Origin: a virus
Reading direction: 5' to 3' (one strand)
DNA length: 64,000 bases
Virus record (IMG/VR): IMGVR_UViG_3300045988_124542
Location: 1-64,000 of that record
Below, in pieces: positions 16,987 to 60,745 of the stretch. The notes under the pieces were generated by a model. The model saw only the letters and a program-made list of their open reading frames with translations. It was not told the DNA's origin and did no database searches. The translations under genes were made by a program, and so were the position numbers. Within the stretch, counting starts at the first letter, position 1, and every line of letters starts with the position of its first letter.

Positions 16987-18006
16987 TCATCGATTTATCT
17001 TTTTAGACGGATCCCAATCTGAAGAGAAAGGGCATTCGTTTTTGTTATGTAATCCAAAGTCACAATAATAACACAGTGCCGACGGGCAGGGTAGCTTGTT
17101 TTGCGAAACAGGCTGGCTTAGGGTGGCACGCCGCTTGCTATACCTGGCTCCTTCTGCTCCCTGGATGTACGCTTGAAATGATTTTACACTATTATCTTCA
17201 AAATCATACATTTTAGATAAAGTGTCATTTAGCATCTCTATAGATTTTGTTTTACGTTCCTCATCCACCTTAACCTTTTGGTACTGCCTGGTTCTGGTAA
17301 AGAAATAGATGTTCATATCTGGTAGAACCCCACCATATTTTCTATAGATGTAAAACGAATATATAGGATGCTGTAAATTCGTTTCCAACTTCTTAGAATC
17401 AAAAACCTTATTCCCTGATTTCCAATCTATGACATAATGGTGAATTACGTTCTTGCTCTTTATAGCCAGATGAAGGTCTACTGATCCTACTATGTACACA
17501 TGGGTATGAATTACCCCATTTATGTCAACTGGCTTAGGAAGGCGGTACGGTAGCACAAAATCTTCTTCGACTCCAACTATAGCGCCGTGTCTGATAAGTT
17601 TCTCACAAGGATTAAGATCACTATCAGCTATCATAAACCTATTGCCGTCTTTTTTAAACAGATCCACAATCCAAGCAAGAAGCTCCCCAGATTGTTTCAT
17701 GGCTATCATCATATTTTCCGGTGATTGCCAAGGTATGTCTTCTTGGTAAGCATAGTAACTTATTGCTTCTCCAAGGTCTTTGCCAGAAGGCTGCCTTCCG
17801 TTCTTGAAGAAGTATTCCAGTGTCTTATGAATAACCGTACCATAAGACGTAGCTTCTTGTTTTTCTGTAGACCTTTTGCCCTCTACGTAAGTCTTATACC
17901 ATTTCATTGGACAAGTAAGAAACGTATCTATCTGGGAATAAGAAATGGCAAGACGTTTCACACCATTAAACTCCTTATATGGCAAATGCGTTTCCGGGAC
18001 CATCAT
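16987..18006 (-). CDS. Cas4/RecB-like PD-(D/E)XK exonuclease with Fe-S cysteine cluster
   Basis: N-terminal Cys (FLTCPMKW), motif III VIDWKSGNK, C-terminal CPSALCYYC...C cluster. Confidence 0.7.
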   Translation of the reverse strand: MMVPETHLPYKEFNGVKRLAISYSQIDTFLTCPMKWYKTYVEGKRSTEKQEATSYGTVIHKTLEYFFKNGRQPSGKDLGEAISYYAYQEDIPWQSPENMMIAMKQSGELLAWIVDLFKKDGNRFMIADSDLNPCEKLIRHGAIVGVEEDFVLPYRLPKPVDINGVIHTHVYIVGSVDLHLAIKSKNVIHHYVIDWKSGNKVFDSKKLETNLQHPIYSFYIYRKYGGVLPDMNIYFFTRTRQYQKVKVDEERKTKSIEMLNDTLSKMYDFEDNSVKSFQAYIQGAEGARYSKRRATLSQPVSQNKLPCPSALCYYCDFGLHNKNECPFSSDWDPSKKINR

Positions 18007-18362
18007 AAGCTATCGTCTTTAAATCCTTCTGGGTAATATACAACATATTTCTTGCCATCCTCCGGCGTCATGGCGAATTGCATGTAGTTATTACGATTAC
18101 GATGTTTGCCATCCAATCCTCGTTTCCAATACAGTATCCCGTCTATATCCACATAAGATCGGCCTCGGTCGGCTCTAACTACGTCCGTGTGCAGCAGATA
18201 CCCGTCGGAAGACACGATCCACACTTTATCCCCTTTGTTTAAATAGGATATTCTTTTTCTTACAACAACCTTTTTCTTATTATCTAATGCAAATTCCTCA
18301 TCAGTCATACTCTTCATCCTCCTCTTCTTCTGTTTCAAAATCAATTCCATAACACTGATCAT
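18003..18362 (-). CDS. hypothetical protein
   Basis: 119-aa ORF. Confidence 0.4.
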   Translation of the reverse strand: MISVMELILKQKKRRMKSMTDEEFALDNKKKVVVRKRISYLNKGDKVWIVSSDGYLLHTDVVRADRGRSYVDIDGILYWKRGLDGKHRNRNNYMQFAMTPEDGKKYVVYYPEGFKDDSL

Positions 18363-18515
18363 AATGCTTGGTCAGTTCTTCTGGTTCTAAATCTTGTCCA
18401 AAATCCATGTTAAAAATATTGTAATTAGTAAAGCACTGTCCCTGCCGGTAGGAAATCTATAAATGCTGCTTTTGCTTCTTCAATTAGGCCCAAGTGTAAC
18501 CTTGGGCCATTGTAT

Positions 18516-20222
18516 TTATTTTTTGTCATCTCCTTTTAACTTCTTTAAAGTATCTGCAATCGGAAGCTGATCAATGACTCCCAATGCCGGAGCAACGGCC
18601 TTAACAACATTGTTAAGGAAATTACCGGTGCTGTTCTGACCGCCGTCAAATACCGTGATATTTCCGAGATTGATGTGCTCGAACGCCTTAACCTGTTCTC
18701 CAGCAATTTCTTTCCACTGATTAACCATCTTGTACTGGATGGCGATCTGAGGATTGGATTCTGCTGCTTCCACCATAGCCTTAAATCCGTCGGCTTCTGC
18801 CATCAACGACTTTTTCTTACCTTCGGCTTCCGCTTCCAGCTTCATCTGAATAGCTTTTGCTTTTGCTTCCGCCTCTGCTTTTGCCAAATGTGCTGCTGCT
18901 TCAGCATCGGCCCGGCGTTTGATCTTCTCGGCCTCGGCATCAGCTTGCAACATAGCCTCCTGCTTCTGAATTTCAGCCGGCACAATCTTTTCAGCTTTAA
19001 GCGCAGCTTGAACCTTCTTAGCTTTAGCTTCTTCCACTTCTTTATCAGCAAGCTCTTTTGCCGTTTTCACAGCCGCTTCCGATTTAACTTTCTCTTCTCC
19101 GGCTTTCTTTTCTGATTGAGCTTTGATAACCTGCAATTCTGATTCTGATACAGCAACCTCTTTCTGGGCATTGTTGTAGCCTACAGAAGCATTTTTCTCA
19201 GCCTCAGCTTTCTTAATCTGAGCTTCAGAGTCTTGTATTGCTATAGCTGCTTGTTTGTCAGCTTCAGCTTTATTCTTTCCAACTTCTTCCATTCTTTCGG
19301 CTTCAGCTTTGTTTACTTCAAGTTCCGCCTTAGATCTTGCAATCGCTGATTCCTTGTCAGCCAAAGTCTTTGCTATAGCCGCAGCCCTATCTCTATCGGC
19401 TTGAGCTACACCGATCTGTTTTTCTTTATCGGTTAAAGCCAAAGCTACTTCTTTTTCTTTCTTTGTTTCAGCTACTACCGTTTCTTTTTCTTTTTCAGTA
19501 TAGGCAATTTGAATCTCTTGTTCTTTTTGGGTATTAGCTACAGCCGTTTCTTTTTCCTTCTGTTGTACAGCAATCTTAATAGCACCCAGCTTTTCCTGTT
19601 CTTCGATATTAGCCTGTGCTTCGTTCAGAGCCTTGCTTTCAGCCTCTTTACCAAGATTCATGATGTAGCCGGCTTCATCTCTGATGTCACTGATGTTAAT
19701 GTTCAAAAGATAAAGACCCAATTTATTAAGTTCGTTATCAATGTTTTTTCTTGCCTTATCCAAAAACTCATCCCTATCAGAATTAAGTTTTTCGATTGTC
19801 ATTTCGGCAATAATCAAACGCATCTGACCGTAAACGATGTCTGTAATAAGATTTTCAGTAGATTCGGTATCCATCCCCAAAAGTCTTTCTGCTGCATTTT
19901 GCATGATTTCAGGATTTGTACTGATAGCTACTGTAATAGTTGTAGGCACATCTACTCTAATATTCTGAGATGACAAAGCACCGGTAAGCCTACAATCTAT
20001 TTGCATAGGCTCCATAGATAAAATATCATAGCTTTGGATAATAGGCAACACGAATGCTGCTCCACCATGATATAATTTCGCCGATTTCTTCTCTCCACCT
20101 GTCTTACCATAAACGACCAAGACCTGATTAGGCTTACATCTACGATACCTTGATAAGACTCCGATGATTGTCAAAATAATCACTACAGCTAAGATGGCTG
20201 ACACGTACATAATTGTTGTCAT
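18516..20222 (-). CDS. flotillin-like SPFH/band-7 membrane scaffold protein
   Basis: N-terminal TM helix, SPFH-type core, long Ala/Glu-rich repeat tail (AEAEAKAKAIQMKLEAEAEG) typical of YqiK/FloT flotillins. Confidence 0.8.
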   Translation of the reverse strand: MTTIMYVSAILAVVIILTIIGVLSRYRRCKPNQVLVVYGKTGGEKKSAKLYHGGAAFVLPIIQSYDILSMEPMQIDCRLTGALSSQNIRVDVPTTITVAISTNPEIMQNAAERLLGMDTESTENLITDIVYGQMRLIIAEMTIEKLNSDRDEFLDKARKNIDNELNKLGLYLLNINISDIRDEAGYIMNLGKEAESKALNEAQANIEEQEKLGAIKIAVQQKEKETAVANTQKEQEIQIAYTEKEKETVVAETKKEKEVALALTDKEKQIGVAQADRDRAAAIAKTLADKESAIARSKAELEVNKAEAERMEEVGKNKAEADKQAAIAIQDSEAQIKKAEAEKNASVGYNNAQKEVAVSESELQVIKAQSEKKAGEEKVKSEAAVKTAKELADKEVEEAKAKKVQAALKAEKIVPAEIQKQEAMLQADAEAEKIKRRADAEAAAHLAKAEAEAKAKAIQMKLEAEAEGKKKSLMAEADGFKAMVEAAESNPQIAIQYKMVNQWKEIAGEQVKAFEHINLGNITVFDGGQNSTGNFLNNVVKAVAPALGVIDQLPIADTLKKLKGDDKK

Positions 20223-20254
20223 AACTTTTAAAATTTAATTGTTGATAAAAAAAA

Positions 20255-20749
20255 TTAGATAATTAATTCTCCTTCTTCGTATTTTATATTCACCTTGTCA
20301 CCGTTTTTGTAAGTTTTTCCAGACAAGCATCTTACTCTCATTTGCTCCTGTCTTCCATTTTTCGAAATATTTACCATATAATGATTCTTCCCTGATCTAA
20401 ACACTATCTCCACCTCTCTGCCATTTAAATCTTCCGGACATTCGTACACCATTTCTTGCTTTAACTTAAGAAGTAACTTATATACGTAAAACAAAACGAT
20501 AAAGAAAAACGACCCTATCACAACCCCTACTAAATGGGAACCCGAAAAGTAGGTAGTCCAGCTATATCCAAGAATAAAATGTGTTATGCCCTTGAATGAT
20601 ATGATGTCCGACAAAGACATACTTAAATCAGAAGCATCATCAATATCAATATCCGTATCCAGATCAGATCCTAATATCGACAACAAAAACTGTATAACAA
20701 AAGCAAATGACGCTATTAAAGCCATGCATAAAATTATGTCACTTCCCAT
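20255..20749 (-). CDS. NfeD-like (YuaF/YqiJ-type) membrane protein, SPFH partner
   Basis: three hydrophobic helices then beta-rich C-terminal ~60 aa; immediately downstream of flotillin gene as in bacterial SPFH-NfeD operons. Confidence 0.55.
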   Translation of the reverse strand: MGSDIILCMALIASFAFVIQFLLSILGSDLDTDIDIDDASDLSMSLSDIISFKGITHFILGYSWTTYFSGSHLVGVVIGSFFFIVLFYVYKLLLKLKQEMVYECPEDLNGREVEIVFRSGKNHYMVNISKNGRQEQMRVRCLSGKTYKNGDKVNIKYEEGELII

Positions 20750-20990
20750 ATCCTTCTGTTATTATTTTGTAAACAAGATCAGTCATATCTTTGATGGTCT
20801 CCATATCATAATCATTAATAACAATATTGAATTTTTGTTCCACCATCATTTCCAGTTCAATTTGATCGATAGAATCTAATCCAAGTTCTTTAAACGTCAC
20901 ATCTTCTTCATGAACTATATCTATTTCCGAATTAAGAAACTGAGTAATAATTATATCCTCTATTATCTTTCTGATTCTTACTTTTTCCAT
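20739..20990 (-). CDS. acyl carrier protein-like
   Basis: 83 aa, acidic, LGLDSIDQIELEM phosphopantetheine-attachment (DSL-like) motif. Confidence 0.75.
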   Translation of the reverse strand: MEKVRIRKIIEDIIITQFLNSEIDIVHEEDVTFKELGLDSIDQIELEMMVEQKFNIVINDYDMETIKDMTDLVYKIITEGYGK

Positions 20991-21691
20991 TGCTTTCTAA
21001 TTTTGTTAAATAAATACGTTTTTATGTTTTTCAATCGCTCTTTGTCTGTTTCAGAACTTCCGGTAAACAAATAATCCGGATTGCCTTTAGCCGGCGGCGT
21101 AGGCAATTTAGATACGGCAAACAACCAATCCATTTCCTTATTCTTCTTAGACTCCAAATAAGGCTCGGTAGCGATCTTAAATTTTTCAGCTATTAAGTCA
21201 AAGAGCTTTGAATTTTTAAGGTTCATATGGACCGAAAAGGCCTGAGAAGGCGGTTTCCATATGAAGTTACATAAGCTCATTGTATAATCTCCTGACTCTG
21301 CTATATAAGATTCCGTTACCTGAAGTATGACCTCTTTCTTGAATGAGGTGTTACCCATAAACCAACACAACCTGGATTCCGCTTCTTTTCTGCTGACACC
21401 TATGTCTTTTGAATACGATTCGTACATTCCTATCATAATCTTCAACGTTTCCAGAACCTCGTCTGTCATCTCCGGTGTCTCTATATAATTCACAAAAGAC
21501 GTTCCTTTGTTGGTCAATCTCATCACGCCTGATTTTAATTTCTCAACCAGGCCAAGCTCTATATACCTCCCAGCATCTTTTTCCAGCATGGCTTCGATCA
21601 TAACCGTATCCTTCTGTCTTATAGCAAGAAGATTAGCCAGATCATTAGGAGTCATGTCTGATGCTGCAAGTTGTCTGAAATTGATGTACAT
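20978..21691 (-). CDS. hypothetical protein
   Basis: 237-aa ORF. Confidence 0.5.
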   Translation of the reverse strand: MYINFRQLAASDMTPNDLANLLAIRQKDTVMIEAMLEKDAGRYIELGLVEKLKSGVMRLTNKGTSFVNYIETPEMTDEVLETLKIMIGMYESYSKDIGVSRKEAESRLCWFMGNTSFKKEVILQVTESYIAESGDYTMSLCNFIWKPPSQAFSVHMNLKNSKLFDLIAEKFKIATEPYLESKKNKEMDWLFAVSKLPTPPAKGNPDYLFTGSSETDKERLKNIKTYLFNKIRKQWKK

Positions 21692-21918: not shown

Positions 21919-22521
21919 TTAACTGTTGTACCCTTCTTTGATAATCGAATTTCTACCGGTAGATACCGACTGTCGAAGATCGTCATGTACAGAATCTACC
22001 GTAGAATACTTGTTTCTGGTTGTAAAAATCACTTCCAGCATCTCCTTGTAATCACCTAAAGCTACTTCATATCTCGGATCTACTTTGGCTTTTCTTTCGG
22101 CCTCGGCATTACTCTTAGCCAGCTCTCGGTCAAGAAGATCTTCTTTGATTCGGTCAGCAATCATATCAAGTTCTTTTTTTATAACTTCTCCTGCTGCCCG
22201 AAGTTGACCTTCTACGTCGCCAAGCTGATCTTGGACGGTTCCTATTTCTTTCTTTAGGCGATCGTATTCGTTAATCATACCCATATCACCTGCATAGCCG
22301 GAAAAGTCCTTGATTATTCTGGTTCCTTCTTTAAGGAGTTCAATAACTCGTCTTTTACGTTCTCTGCTTATTAAAGACGGAAGACGATAATTCATATCCG
22401 CCACCGCCTTATCATGTATGGAGTTGATTAAAAACATCTCTCTTTCATCCCCTGCAAACTCAGTAAGAACCAAAAGGAACTTACTTATCAGGTATTCGTT
22501 TTCTTCTACTGTTAGTCTCAT
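21919..22521 (-). CDS. hypothetical protein
   Basis: 200-aa ORF, coiled-coil-like. Confidence 0.5.
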   Translation of the reverse strand: MRLTVEENEYLISKFLLVLTEFAGDEREMFLINSIHDKAVADMNYRLPSLISRERKRRVIELLKEGTRIIKDFSGYAGDMGMINEYDRLKKEIGTVQDQLGDVEGQLRAAGEVIKKELDMIADRIKEDLLDRELAKSNAEAERKAKVDPRYEVALGDYKEMLEVIFTTRNKYSTVDSVHDDLRQSVSTGRNSIIKEGYNS

Positions 22522-58654: not shown

Positions 58655-59623
58655 TTAAAATGGAAGGTCATCTTCTTCCATAGGAGGAAAGTTCGGCATC
58701 TGTGCTTGCGGCTGTGGCTGCGTCTGATGCTGAGGCTTGGTGCTCCTTGTAGCAGGCGCCGGGGCAGGTGCAGCAGGCTGAGCAGTCGGCTGTGGCGTAT
58801 AAGCCGGTGCCTGATACTGTGCTGGCTGTTGAGCAGGCTGTTGATAATTCTGATACGGAATAGCACTCGGAACAGACTGAGGTTGTTGAACCTGTTGAGG
58901 CGCGGCCGGCTGCTGGGGATAAGTCTGAGGAGCTGTAGGATCTTGCTGAGCATTTCCTCCTAAACCTAATTTAGCCATTATACCTGCTCTGATATCTTTA
59001 ATAGAAGCATTGAATCTGTTTGAATATTCAGTAATCTTCTGATAAGTGAAGTTGTTTTGAGCTGAATAATCAAGGCTTTTCTTGCCATCAAATCCTGTAA
59101 CTTCAACAGGGTCAGGCCAACCATTTACGCCTTTTTTATAAAAACGTTCAACAAGCTGATCGTTTTCTCCGTCTACTCCGGCATATGCGATAATAAGTTC
59201 CGAAGATCCAAACTCGTCATCTTTCTTCTTCTTAAAGACATTGAAATAAATTTCACGACTGAAATCGATGTTTTCGTAGTATTTTACGAAGCTCTTAACA
59301 AAGCCCTTGATATTTCCTTTTTGATTGACGAGAGGTATGGAAATACAATAGTTTTCATTAAGCTCGTAATCTTTTAATACGATAAGGAAATTAGTAACAG
59401 TATTTCCATTAGAGAAAGAGCTTGACTTTAACCCGATGTAGTTAATGTATCCAACTACTCCATTATAATACTCTTTCCAATATCCCGCCGGCTGACCGCT
59501 ATTAGGATTTATGTGCTGAACAAAACCTTCTTTTGGTTCGTTACTTTTTTCATACAAGTTACCATCTGAATTAATATACAGATAATAAGTTGTACCAAAA
59601 CTTCTGTTTTCTCTAAAAGCCAT
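58655..59623 (-). CDS. SSB-like protein with Gln/Pro-rich linker and acidic C-terminal tip MEEDDLPF
   Basis: C-terminus mimics bacterial SSB DDDIPF tail; N-terminal domain not a recognisable canonical OB by eye. Confidence 0.5.
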   Translation of the reverse strand: MAFRENRSFGTTYYLYINSDGNLYEKSNEPKEGFVQHINPNSGQPAGYWKEYYNGVVGYINYIGLKSSSFSNGNTVTNFLIVLKDYELNENYCISIPLVNQKGNIKGFVKSFVKYYENIDFSREIYFNVFKKKKDDEFGSSELIIAYAGVDGENDQLVERFYKKGVNGWPDPVEVTGFDGKKSLDYSAQNNFTYQKITEYSNRFNASIKDIRAGIMAKLGLGGNAQQDPTAPQTYPQQPAAPQQVQQPQSVPSAIPYQNYQQPAQQPAQYQAPAYTPQPTAQPAAPAPAPATRSTKPQHQTQPQPQAQMPNFPPMEEDDLPF

Positions 59624-59635
59624 ATTATTAATTGT

Positions 59636-60745
59636 TTATAGATTATACAATGTTTGATTTAAGACGTATGTTGATTCGTATTTAGGATTGAACATCTTTA
59701 TCATCTTATACTGATCAGACCAATCCATGACAGTATCTCCTTTTATAAGTGATTTTACGGAAGACAGTATATTTTCCTTACCGATAGAAAAATTAAAACA
59801 CGGACCTTCGAGCGCATTCAAAGGCATTGATTCCATTATCTTTTTTCTATTTCCAAAATCCTCAGACATTACCGTTATGCCGTTTTCTTCATCTACCTTG
59901 ACATTAACAACATTATCCACCAAAGTCATGGAATTAAGAACCGATATAAGTAAATCCCGGTCAAACTTAACTCTCGACGATTTTTCGAATTTGCTACATA
60001 CGTATTCGTAGTTAGGATACTGTTGTTCTACGTTCATATCCGATATAATTACATTATCAAAGCATAAGAACGTCCTAACTCCATCTGTAGAAATACTGAT
60101 CTCCGTATCTTTATCAGATAGAAAGCGGTACAAGATAGAAGCCGCAACCTCGCTTAGCATAATCGACCTTTCTTCTGATGCATTAGCATACTCTTTCCTG
60201 TTTATAAACAGACGGAACATATCAGTAGAAACAATGTCAATATAGTCCTTCTTCACATTAAGAAGAATCGAGCATATAGCTGGTCTAAATTCATCCGATC
60301 CAACAAACGCAAAAGATCTTTTCATAGACTGAATGAAAGACGAACTCATAACACGAATACCGTCACCTACAGGATAAAAGAAATCAGGGAAAGCCTTATC
60401 CTCAATCCAAGTAGAAGAAAAAGATCCTCTATCGTATTTAAAAACGATACTGTAATCATTTTTAATCTCTATCTCTATATCCTGGTTATGATTTTTAAAA
60501 AATGAAATAAGAGTCCCGGCATCTACTAAAAGAGAAAACTTCTGGTCACAAGAAATATCAGTATTCACATCGAAAATATCATCCGTATATGTTATACGTT
60601 CGTTCATGGCTTGTATCCGGATATGATCAAAATATAAAGTAATTTTTATATTCGATGTGACACAATCCTTTAGAACCTTATCAAACATCTTTGAAATGTT
60701 TGAAAGTTTCTCATTCATTAGTATGCCAGGAACTCTTACTTTCAT
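59636..60745 (-). CDS. possible DNA polymerase sliding-clamp-like protein
   Basis: 369 aa (beta-clamp size), position between SSB-like and RuvC-like genes; no decisive motif. Confidence 0.3.
   Translation of the reverse strand: MKVRVPGILMNEKLSNISKMFDKVLKDCVTSNIKITLYFDHIRIQAMNERITYTDDIFDVNTDISCDQKFSLLVDAGTLISFFKNHNQDIEIEIKNDYSIVFKYDRGSFSSTWIEDKAFPDFFYPVGDGIRVMSSSFIQSMKRSFAFVGSDEFRPAICSILLNVKKDYIDIVSTDMFRLFINRKEYANASEERSIMLSEVAASILYRFLSDKDTEISISTDGVRTFLCFDNVIISDMNVEQQYPNYEYVCSKFEKSSRVKFDRDLLISVLNSMTLVDNVVNVKVDEENGITVMSEDFGNRKKIMESMPLNALEGPCFNFSIGKENILSSVKSLIKGDTVMDWSDQYKMIKMFNPKYESTYVLNQTLYNL

What the first reader, a model, noticed from the sequence alone, without database searches (positions are those of the whole stretch)
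18516..20990. Phage-borne flotillin (SPFH) - NfeD - acyl carrier protein operon
Three consecutive overlapping minus-strand genes encode a 568-aa protein with a membrane anchor, band-7/SPFH core and a long AEAEAKAK-type flotillin tail; a 164-aa three-helix membrane protein with a beta-rich C-terminal stub (short NfeD/YuaF/YqiJ architecture, the canonical SPFH operon partner); and an 83-aa protein with an ACP phosphopantetheine motif (LGLDSIDQIELEM). SPFH-NfeD pairs organise bacterial membrane microdomains and are not standard phage equipment. Embedded between a Cas4-like nuclease and the DnaB-like helicase, the trio suggests the phage builds or remodels a host membrane platform (replication-factory anchoring, lipid modification via the ACP, superinfection exclusion or lysis timing).
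Basis: partly seen in the sequence, partly recalled or inferred. Interest (0 to 1): 0.7.

Follow-up and report, generated by a model that had tools for sequence, protein, structure and literature searches.

The report
Host-derived flotillin cassette in gut phage
An abundant human-gut crAss-like phage carries a flotillin gene and its small membrane partner, copied from Bacteroidales bacteria, as an optional add-on that about 40% of sampled genomes have deleted or truncated; the neighbouring acyl-carrier-like gene is separate cargo, not part of the same unit.

Summary
The three minus-strand ORFs are real and correctly identified. The 568-aa protein is a flotillin (Pfam Band_7 2.5e-25, Flot 4.4e-9). 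The 164-aa protein has three membrane helices and a C-terminal OB barrel whose best structural matches are NfeD domains. The 83-aa protein is an ACP-family protein with the DS motif.

The window is phage: 96.9% nucleotide identity, collinear, with epsilon crAss-like phage crAssE-Sib. GenBank already labels these genes "acyl carrier protein", "transmembrane protein" and "flotillin family protein".

The three-gene functional operon is not supported.
- Six Bacteroidales chromosomal loci carry the pair [165-170-aa partner][flotillin], at up to 61% identity, with no ACP.
- Sister phages carry an ACP-like gene, with Ser replaced by Asp, followed by a DNA methylase and two radical-SAM genes instead of flotillin. 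Others have the slot empty.
- Among 78 related phage contigs, flotillin is full-length in 45, truncated in 7 and deleted in 26, with 8 junction classes. ACP is retained in 77.
- Intact flotillin is under strong purifying selection (pN/pS 0.02-0.08). ACP is relaxed (0.44).

Best reading: a host-derived flotillin-NfeD2 membrane-scaffold cassette sits in a variable cargo slot and is conditionally useful. Its role in infection is unknown.

The parts
18516..20222 (-). Flotillin (SPFH2 / FloT-YqiK type), 568 aa. It has an N-terminal hydrophobic anchor (about residues 5-24), an SPFH domain (30-211), a long Glu/Ala/Lys-rich helical region and a C-terminal Flot domain (452-561).
   Evidence: Pfam Band_7 and Flot. 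NCBIfam FloT model 4.5e-42 but far below its equivalog cut-off. PDB flotillin-1/2 hits. Identity is 24% over the full length to E. coli YqiK and 45-61% to Bacteroidales chromosomal flotillins. pN/pS is 0.017 (residues 1-200) and 0.079 (201-440).
20255..20749 (-). NfeD2-like flotillin partner, 164 aa. Order of elements: TM1, a conserved acidic DxDxDxD loop, TM2, TM3, then a C-terminal OB-fold barrel (about residues 112-163).
20739..20990 (-). Divergent acyl-carrier-protein-like gene, 83 aa, with the motif LGLDSID (Ser40). It is separate cargo, not part of the flotillin cassette.
   Evidence: Pfam PP-binding, 32.6 bits. PHROG ACP family. PDB ACPs. All NCBIfam ACP models score below cut-off. Ser40 is present in 151 of 152 locus copies, with a few premature stops. 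pN/pS is 0.44-0.47. It is retained in 77 of 78 contigs.
20978..21691 (-). Conserved 237-aa protein at the upstream edge of the cargo slot. It has an N-terminal MarR-like winged-helix domain and a helical C-terminal domain. It is not a phosphopantetheinyl transferase.
18003..18362 (-). Conserved 119-aa protein at the downstream edge of the cargo slot.
   Evidence: It is present in all related loci, including those that lack flotillin. A homologue directly follows the 237-aa gene in L183.
16987..18006 (-). PD-(D/E)XK (Cas4/RecB-like) exonuclease. It is a conserved replication and recombination gene downstream of the slot.
   Evidence: Pfam PDDEXK_1 1.6e-20. PHROG exonuclease.
18414..20252 (.). 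The segment absent from the commonest flotillin-less genomes. It runs from just after the stop codon of the 164-aa gene to about 100 nt beyond the flotillin stop codon.
   Evidence: blastn junctions 20252|18414 and 20250|18417 occur in 16 contigs, and six other junction classes were found.
18487..18508 (.). G+C-rich 8-bp-stem hairpin (GGCCCAAG...CTTGGGCC), 8 nt downstream of the flotillin stop codon. It may be a transcript-end or stability element of the cassette.
   Evidence: Terminator-like scan and sequence reading. There is no T-run on the coding strand, so a terminator function is not shown.

Best explanation
The locus is not one three-gene unit. It is two kinds of cargo sitting in a variable slot of the replication-gene block of an epsilon crAss-like phage, between a conserved 237-aa winged-helix protein and a conserved 119-aa protein plus PD-(D/E)XK exonuclease.

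Cargo 1 is a two-gene cassette acquired en bloc from Bacteroidales: an NfeD2-like partner followed by an SPFH2-type flotillin.

How it would work, inferred from homology to flotillin, HflK/C and QmcA assemblies:
- The flotillin anchors by its N-terminal hydrophobic segment and SPFH domain to the cytoplasmic face of the host inner membrane.
- It oligomerises through its long helical region and C-terminal Flot domain into a dome or cage over a membrane patch.
- The partner contributes three TM helices in that patch and a cytoplasmic OB domain that docks on the flotillin.
- Made by the phage alongside its replication genes, it would add to or replace the host's own flotillin assemblies and so alter membrane organisation, fluidity or integrity during infection.

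It is an accessory, conditionally beneficial function. It is strongly constrained when intact but repeatedly deleted or truncated in nature.

Cargo 2 is a fast-evolving ACP-like protein that is gained, kept and lost independently of the cassette.

Shown here: gene identities, bacterial origin, slot variability, presence/absence polymorphism and selection pattern. Inferred: cage assembly, partner docking, topology and the physiological benefit.
For: Identity.

Phage context: 96.9% nt identity and collinear with crAssE-Sib. The same gene order is annotated there.

Bacterial origin of the pair:
- In L004, L005, L006, L008, L093 and L097, a 165-170-aa family member lies immediately upstream of a 523-659-aa flotillin among housekeeping genes, with no ACP.
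- The closest bacterial flotillin is 61% identical (P0169).

Conservation in diverged phages: in L094, flotillin is 73% identical; in L095, flotillin is 83% and the partner 61% identical.

Variable slot:
- ACP-like, methylase and two radical-SAM genes in L178, L179 and L184.
- Unknown small ORFs in L180 to L182 and L186.
- Only the 119-aa homologue in L183.
- Empty in L185.

Polymorphism: of 78 contigs found with the neutral 237-aa anchor, 45 have a full-length flotillin, 7 a truncated one and 26 a deletion, with 8 junction classes. ACP is present in 77 and the partner is intact in 72. The flotillin-less contigs are scattered across the flanking-gene clustering.

Selection (pN/pS): flotillin 0.017 and 0.079, partner 0.07, ACP 0.44-0.47, neighbouring genes 0.02-0.07.

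Definition of NfeD2 as the weakly conserved, structurally recognised partner of SPFH2: PMC2636767.
Against: - Assembly, topology and any effect on the host were not tested.
- Most contigs (62 of 78) come from one IMG/VR data set, so the frequencies are not independent samples, and some variants could be assembly errors.
- Truncated alleles of 478-502 aa may retain activity.
- The phage is uncultured and its host is only inferred.
Confidence: 0.72

Rival explanations
1. One reading: ACP, NfeD and flotillin form one functional operon, in which the ACP supplies or modifies lipids for a phage-built membrane platform that anchors replication.
For: The three genes are adjacent, co-directional and tightly packed. 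The order is kept in three diverged phage lineages: crAssE-Sib, L094 and L095. In B. subtilis the yuaF-floT operon carries a third gene, the acetyltransferase yuaI (PMC2636767).
Against: - No ACP lies next to the pair in six bacterial loci.
- An ACP-like gene occurs with different cargo, and with Asp in place of the carrier Ser, in L178, L179 and L184.
- ACP is kept when flotillin is deleted, in 19 or more contigs.
- The selection regimes are very different: 0.44 against 0.02-0.08.
- No acyltransferase, synthetase or PPTase is annotated in the 151-kb genome. The adjacent 237-aa protein is a winged-helix protein, not a PPTase.
- The whole roughly 50-kb block is co-directional with overlapping genes, so tight packing is not specific to this trio.
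- Loss in about 40% of genomes argues against an essential replication anchor.
Confidence: 0.07
2. The cassette is a conflict module. One version is superinfection exclusion, blocking genome entry by competing phages at the inner membrane. The other is counter-defence, stabilising or repairing the membrane against host abortive-infection effectors that depolarise or perforate it.
For: - It sits in a cargo slot that in sister phages holds a DNA methylase and two radical-SAM enzymes, typical of DNA-modification or anti-restriction cargo.
- Presence/absence polymorphism combined with strong purifying selection on intact copies is the pattern expected for genes whose value depends on the host strain or on competitors.
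- Bacterial SPFH proteins are linked to membrane-stress responses (abstracts of PMC8581546 and PMC7360373).
Against: There is no match to any PADLOC defence model. No SPFH-based exclusion or anti-defence system is known to me. Nothing in the sequence distinguishes this role from general membrane homeostasis.
Confidence: 0.2
3. The cassette tunes a host membrane protease such as FtsH, as HflK/C does for lambda CII, and so biases a lysis-lysogeny or persistence decision in these repressor- and antirepressor-encoding phages.
For: SPFH proteins HflK/C and YbbK/QmcA interact with FtsH (PMC2636767). Epsilon crAss-like phages encode repressors and antirepressors (abstract of PMC11054128; annotation).
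Against: The protein belongs to the flotillin (SPFH2) branch, not the HflK/C or stomatin branches. The QmcA match is weak (8e-6). There is no evidence of a target protease or of lysogeny in this phage.
Confidence: 0.06
4. The cassette is a functionless passenger: recently captured host DNA that is simply decaying.
For: Frequent deletions, frameshifts and premature stops.
Against: - pN/pS is 0.017-0.08 at synonymous diversity of 0.13-0.24.
- It is retained with the same synteny in lineages whose partner protein has diverged to 61% identity.
- The partner remains intact and constrained (pN/pS 0.11) even in flotillin-less genomes.
Confidence: 0.04

Closest known systems
Bacterial SPFH2 flotillin-NfeD2 operons (B. 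subtilis yuaF-floT, E. coli yqiJ-yqiK), as defined by Hinderhofer et al. 2009 (PMC2636767)
   Same: The gene order is small partner then flotillin, with a short spacer. The flotillin has an N-terminal anchor, a Band_7 domain, an EA-rich helical region and a Flot C-terminal domain. The partner has three hydrophobic helices and a soluble all-beta OB domain, and is recognisable by structure rather than by sequence.
   Different: It is encoded by a phage. Identity to YqiK is only 24% and there is no significant sequence similarity to YqiJ. The partner belongs to a Bacteroidales-centred family not covered by Pfam NfeD or YqiJ models, and it has a conserved DxDxDxD loop after TM1.
Chromosomal [165-170-aa partner][flotillin] pairs of Bacteroidales (loci L004-L008, L093, L097)
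   Same: These are direct homologues of both genes in the same order. Flotillin identity is 44-61% and partner identity 32-39%.
   Different: They have chromosomal housekeeping neighbours and no ACP. Flotillin length varies (523-659 aa) through the helical region.
Annotated genes of phage crAssE-Sib (OR575929.1; Babkin et al. 2024, PMC11054128)
   Same: Same phage species and same three genes, already labelled 'acyl carrier protein', 'transmembrane protein' and 'flotillin family protein'.
   Different: The paper does not mention these genes. The NfeD-type assignment, the bacterial origin, the cargo-slot context and the presence/absence polymorphism are not described there.
Flotillin family protein of Vibrio phage KIT04 (T5-like, LC487410.1)
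   Same: It is another cultured-phage flotillin annotation, 34% identical over the SPFH domain.
   Different: It is in an unrelated phage. tblastn found no NfeD-like or ACP homologue in the 8.5 kb around it, and its gene context differs.
Phage-encoded acyl carrier proteins (PHROG 5934; Yersinia jumbo phage fHe-Yen9-04 g153)
   Same: They are small PP-binding-family proteins with the DS motif.
   Different: The gene here is a lone ACP-like gene with relaxed constraint. Its sister-lineage orthologues have Asp in place of the carrier Ser.

Membership tests
SPFH superfamily, flotillin (SPFH2 / FloT-YqiK) branch | Band_7/SPFH domain above the Pfam gathering score | tested here: met
   PF01145, 90 bits against a cut-off of 23.6, residues 30-211.
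SPFH superfamily, flotillin (SPFH2 / FloT-YqiK) branch | C-terminal flotillin domain after a long helical EA-rich region | tested here: met
   PF15975 Flot, 36.9 bits against a cut-off of 27, residues 452-561. The best PDB matches are flotillin-1/2 rather than HflK/C or stomatin.
SPFH superfamily, flotillin (SPFH2 / FloT-YqiK) branch | N-terminal hydrophobic membrane anchor | tested here: met
   The sequence MTTIMYVSAILAVVIILTIIGVLSRYRR aligns with the YqiK N-terminus. This rests on sequence reading only; no topology prediction tool was run.
SPFH superfamily, flotillin (SPFH2 / FloT-YqiK) branch | Equivalog of B. subtilis FloT (NCBIfam NF058507 cut-off) | tested here: not met
   144.7 bits against a cut-off of 700. 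It is a flotillin-family member, not a FloT orthologue.
SPFH superfamily, flotillin (SPFH2 / FloT-YqiK) branch | Assembly into a membrane-attached oligomeric cage | not testable with these tools
   Inferred from homology to 9bq2 and 9l3g only.
NfeD2 (YuaF/YqiJ-type short NfeD partner of flotillins) | Three N-terminal hydrophobic helices followed by a soluble all-beta C-terminal domain | tested here: met
   The AlphaFold model has helices at 2-25, 52-69 and 72-101 and strands at 112-163. The criteria are from PMC2636767.
NfeD2 (YuaF/YqiJ-type short NfeD partner of flotillins) | C-terminal domain structurally like NfeD OB domains | tested here: met
   [not shown]
NfeD2 (YuaF/YqiJ-type short NfeD partner of flotillins) | Gene immediately upstream of, and co-inherited with, an SPFH2 flotillin gene | tested here: met
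   True in the window, in diverged phages and in six Bacteroidales loci.
NfeD2 (YuaF/YqiJ-type short NfeD partner of flotillins) | Significant sequence match to Pfam NfeD (PF01957) or YqiJ (PF07290/PF21001) | tested here: not met
   The window protein has no hit. hhalign against YqiJ gives probability 1-3%. A family profile against PDB finds no NfeD. There are indirect links only: 1 of 69 relatives hits PF01957 at 6e-5, and a 34%-identical viral relative carries the NfeD-like name.
NfeD2 (YuaF/YqiJ-type short NfeD partner of flotillins) | Physical interaction with the flotillin | not testable with these tools
Acyl carrier protein (PP-binding) | PP-binding domain above the Pfam gathering score | tested here: met
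   32.6 bits against a cut-off of 20.8. 89 PDB ACPs at E<=0.01.
Acyl carrier protein (PP-binding) | Conserved Ser of the DSL/DSI motif at the start of helix II | tested here: met
   Ser40 in LGLDSID is present in 151 of 152 locus copies. Orthologues in the sister lineage (L178, L179, L184) have GFDDLD, with no Ser.
Acyl carrier protein (PP-binding) | Equivalog of the fatty-acid-synthesis AcpP (NCBIfam cut-offs) | tested here: not met
   The best model scores 37 bits against a cut-off of 71, and all 16 models fall below cut-off.
Acyl carrier protein (PP-binding) | Phosphopantetheinylation and a cognate acyl-handling enzyme | not testable with these tools
   No PPTase or acyl enzyme is annotated in crAssE-Sib. 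The adjacent 237-aa protein is a winged-helix protein.
   The bacterial pairs lack an ACP. ACP-like genes occur with other cargo. Flotillin is lost independently of ACP.
Epsilon crAss-like phages (crAssE-Sib species group) | Near-identical, collinear genome | tested here: met
   96.9% identity over 25 kb. The window wraps around the record ends.

The most novel reading that the evidence does not exclude
The phage-made flotillin-NfeD cage is a membrane conflict device. Either it shields the inner membrane of the infected Bacteroidales cell against abortive-infection effectors that perforate or depolarise it, or it blocks genome entry by competing phages. Its patchy presence would then track which hosts or competitors a phage lineage meets. 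A further possibility is that the partner protein, which is retained and still constrained in flotillin-less genomes, plugs into the host's own flotillin assemblies.
Probability: 0.18. Interest if true: 0.75.

Novelty: new member of a known kind. Interest (0 to 1): 0.42.

Why it matters
Flotillin-type scaffolds are rare in phages: 9 of 50,697 phage records match and no PHROG family hits.

This one sits in a very common human-gut crAss-like phage and exists in nature as intact, truncated and deleted alleles. That gives a ready-made comparison for asking what a bacterial flotillin-NfeD assembly does in a cell, which is still unclear even for FloT and YqiK. It also lets one ask what a phage gains by supplying one.

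The work also:
- defines a large, unannotated Bacteroidales family of flotillin partners (433 clusters);
- identifies a cargo hot-spot in epsilon crAss-like genomes;
- corrects the idea that the ACP-like gene belongs to the module.

Tried and rejected
- **Sequence routes to NfeD for the 164-aa protein.** All were negative or insignificant: Pfam, PHROGs, NCBIfam and PADLOC, phmmer and a profile search against PDB, and hhalign against E. coli YqiJ. Only structure and gene order support the assignment.
- **Defence-system membership.** No meaningful PADLOC hit for any of the three genes.
- **The 237-aa neighbour as an Sfp-type phosphopantetheinyl transferase.** Its size and its overlap with the ACP gene suggested it. 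Rejected: it has a MarR-like winged helix plus a helical domain.
- **A search for ACP-using enzymes in the phage.** None is annotated.
- **Promoter and terminator scans.** Counts equal the shuffled expectation, so they are uninformative for Bacteroidales-type promoters.
- **Tandem repeats as the cause of flotillin length variation.** Only a weak 27-nt, two-copy repeat was found.
- **Technical failures.** The 69-sequence alignment was too divergent for the genome scan, and the afdb50 fold library was unavailable.
- **An ascertainment problem, corrected.** The first loss estimate came from loci found with the 164-aa protein itself. It was redone with the neutral 237-aa anchor.
- **Literature.** No paper links flotillin with crAss-like phages.
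Full report
**1. Observation**

- The ACP and 164-aa genes overlap by 11 nt.
- The 164-aa and flotillin genes are separated by a 32-nt AT-rich spacer, so they do not overlap.
- The upstream 237-aa gene overlaps the ACP gene by 13 nt.
- The whole region from about 10 kb to the end of the window is one co-directional minus-strand block. Tight packing is therefore not special to this trio.

**2. Identities**

*The 568-aa protein is a flotillin.*
- Pfam Band_7 (2.5e-25, residues 30-211) and Flot (4.4e-9, residues 452-561).
- NCBIfam FloT model at 4.5e-42, far below its equivalog cut-off.
- The best solved relatives are human flotillin-1/2 from the cage structures 9bq2 and 9l3g. QmcA is only a weak match.
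- It aligns end to end with E. coli YqiK at 24% identity.

*The 83-aa protein belongs to the ACP family.*
- Pfam PP-binding, 32.6 bits against a cut-off of 20.8.
- PHROG ACP family.
- 89 PDB ACPs match, with the Ser of LGLDSID aligned to the carrier Ser.
- It misses every NCBIfam ACP cut-off, so it is divergent.

*The 164-aa protein is NfeD-like by structure and gene order, not by sequence.*
- It has no HMM match in Pfam, PHROGs, NCBIfam or PADLOC.
- An AlphaFold model built on five homologues (pLDDT 74; 83-89 in the C-terminal part) shows three TM helices, a disordered acidic loop after TM1 and a C-terminal barrel.
- Ribosomal uS17-type OB folds score nearly as well.
- A profile search of 1.84 billion representatives shows a sizeable unannotated family: 433 clusters, typically 160-175 aa, with a near-invariant DxDxDxD and SFKG.xHF signature.
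- One of 69 members hits Pfam NfeD. A 34%-identical viral member is named "NfeD-like C-terminal domain-containing protein" in BFVD/UniProt.
- hhalign against E. coli YqiJ and a family profile against PDB are not significant.
- This fits how Hinderhofer et al. defined the NfeD2 partners of SPFH2 flotillins: three hydrophobic stretches, an all-beta soluble domain, about 21% identity to other NfeDs, and recognition by structure and operon position (PMC2636767).

**3. It is a phage, and the genes are already annotated**

- The window is 96.9% identical and collinear with the epsilon crAss-like phage crAssE-Sib (OR575929.1, 151 kb, human gut).
- GenBank labels the same three genes "acyl carrier protein", "transmembrane protein" and "flotillin family protein".
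- The paper describing that phage never mentions them.
- No paper in the library links flotillin to crAss-like phages.
- Flotillin-type proteins are rare in phages. Only 9 of 50,697 phage records match, several of them tiny unannotated fragments. The one clear cultured case is the T5-like Vibrio phage KIT04.
- No PHROG family matches the flotillin.

**4. Origin of the flotillin pair**

- Six bacterial loci carry a 165-170-aa member of the partner family immediately upstream of a 523-659-aa flotillin. They are L004, L005, L006 and L008 (Dysgonamonadaceae, Prevotellaceae and Tannerella MAGs), L093 and L097.
- Their neighbours are housekeeping genes such as phosphoglycerate mutase, LysRS, TruA and chorismate synthase. 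None has an ACP beside the pair.
- Flotillin identity to the phage protein is 44-61%, and partner identity is 32-39%.
- The spacing and order match the phage arrangement.
- The simplest reading is en-bloc capture of a Bacteroidales two-gene operon.

**5. The slot and the ACP**

I used the conserved 237-aa neighbour to find more distant epsilon-like phages. The region between it and the 119-aa protein plus PD-(D/E)XK exonuclease turns out to be variable:

| Lineage (loci) | Content of the slot |
|---|---|
| Window, L094, L095 | ACP, partner, flotillin |
| L178, L179, L184 | ACP-like, DNA methylase, two small ORFs, two radical-SAM proteins |
| L180, L181 | Two unknown ORFs |
| L183 | Only the 119-aa homologue |
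| L185 | Nothing; the 237-aa gene abuts the exonuclease gene |
| L182, L186 | Other small ORFs |

- In L178, L179 and L184 the ACP-like protein still passes Pfam PP-binding. However, its motif reads GFDDLD, with Asp where the carrier Ser should be.
- The 237-aa protein is a MarR-like winged-helix protein with a helical C-terminal domain, not a phosphopantetheinyl transferase.
- No PPTase or acyl-handling enzyme is annotated anywhere in crAssE-Sib.
- The ACP-like gene is therefore independent cargo, older in the slot than the flotillin pair. It is possibly not a carrier at all in some lineages.

**6. Population pattern**

A first look at loci found with the partner protein itself showed contigs without flotillin. 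To avoid ascertainment bias I repeated the survey with the 237-aa anchor. Of 78 contigs covering the whole slot:

| Flotillin state | Contigs |
|---|---|
| Full-length ORF (557-597 aa) | 45 |
| Premature stop or frameshift (ORF of 276-502 aa) | 7 |
| Gene wholly or largely deleted | 26 |

- Among the 26 deletions, 19 keep ACP and the partner intact. One loses most of the flotillin only. Five also remove part or all of the partner. One removes all three genes.
- There are eight junction classes. The commonest two run from just after the partner's stop codon (window 20250-20252) to about 100 nt beyond the flotillin stop (18414-18417).
- Flotillin-less contigs are scattered across a clustering of the flanking genes.
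- Independent protein-database entries show further chimeric ORFs that fuse the partner's N-terminus to the flotillin C-terminus at different points.
- ACP is present in 77 of 78 contigs.

Intact copies are nevertheless strongly constrained. pN/pS values:

| Gene or region | pN/pS |
|---|---|
| Flotillin residues 1-200 | 0.017 |
| Flotillin residues 201-440 | 0.079 |
| NfeD-like partner | 0.07 |
| Neighbouring genes | 0.02-0.07 |
| ACP-like gene | 0.44-0.47 |

- The partner's pN/pS is 0.11 within flotillin-less genomes.
- Synonymous diversity across these genes is 0.10-0.24.
- In the ACP-like gene, the most variable residues lie in helix II just after the Ser (positions 41, 43, 47, 48) and around positions 59-63. 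A few copies carry premature stops and one has Ser replaced by Tyr.

Caveats: 62 of the 78 contigs come from one IMG/VR data set, contigs are not independent samples, and read-level validation was not possible.

**7. Mechanism**

*Shown:* a host-derived flotillin plus NfeD2-like cassette lies in a cargo hot-spot of the phage's replication-gene block. It is dispensable yet constrained.

*Inferred from homology:*
- The flotillin forms a membrane-attached dome on the cytoplasmic face of the inner membrane.
- The partner's TM helices sit in the enclosed patch, and its OB domain binds the flotillin. The Lys-rich stretch after TM3 suggests the OB domain is cytoplasmic.
- The phage thereby supplements or re-programmes host flotillin microdomains during infection.

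Which benefit this brings cannot be decided from sequence. Candidates are membrane homeostasis, exclusion or counter-defence, and protease control. I favour a general membrane-scaffold or homeostasis role. The conflict-module reading is the main rival, because of the slot's other cargo and the patchy distribution. An essential replication anchor is unlikely given the frequent loss.

**8. Verdict**

The three-gene operon and the ACP-lipid link are not supported.

This is a new, phage-borne member of a known bacterial operon type. It is already partly annotated in GenBank but not discussed in print. It comes with an informative natural presence/absence polymorphism. Interest is moderate.

Noticed in passing
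window 20739-20990 (-); loci L009-L177: The ACP-like gene evolves much faster than its neighbours (pN/pS 0.44-0.47 against 0.02-0.08). The most variable residues are in helix II just after the Ser (positions 41, 43, 47, 48) and at positions 59-63, which are surfaces that ACPs use to bind partners. A few copies have premature stops (L048, L118, L055/L155) and one has Ser40 replaced by Tyr (L072).
   Followed up: partly
L178 5675-5938, L179 5675-5938, L184 5675-5938: In sister epsilon-like phages the ACP-like protein still passes Pfam PP-binding, but its motif is GFDDLD, with Asp in place of the phosphopantetheine-bearing Ser. In that lineage it cannot be a classical carrier.
   Followed up: partly
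L178 5941-8946, L184 5950-8956: In those phages the same slot holds a DNA cytosine methylase, two small ORFs and two radical-SAM proteins. This may be a DNA-modification or anti-restriction cassette. Its function was not examined.
   Followed up: no
proteins P0020, P0027, P0028, P0031, P0032, P0013; locus L117: Several database ORFs are chimeras that join the N-terminal part of the 164-aa protein to the C-terminal part of the flotillin at different points. Five are in frame and one is out of frame. They are independent deletion alleles or assembly artefacts.
   Followed up: partly
window 21919-22521 (-): The 200-aa coiled-coil protein between the DnaB-like helicase and the 237-aa protein is almost invariant across about 160 loci (99-100% amino-acid identity, pN/pS 0.02). 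It has no family assignment.
   Followed up: no
[not shown]
   Followed up: partly
proteins P0050-P0169; loci L094, L095: Flotillin length varies widely among phage and bacterial relatives (about 478-659 aa for apparently complete proteins), through insertions and deletions in the helical EA/K-rich region. In SPFH cages this region forms the wall.
   Followed up: no
L125 and L173 (about 356 nt inserted next to window position 18350); L128 and L139 (about 360 nt of unrelated sequence): Some contigs carry an extra segment of about 360 nt, with no counterpart in the window, just upstream of the 119-aa gene. This is further evidence that the slot is a recombination hot-spot.
   Followed up: no
L179 592-1812 (-), L183 7044-8628; crAssE-Sib record 58986-60125 and 64190-65413: IS605/TnpB-type (OrfB_IS605, Cas12f-like) genes are scattered through epsilon crAss-like genomes, including close to the replication block.
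   Followed up: no
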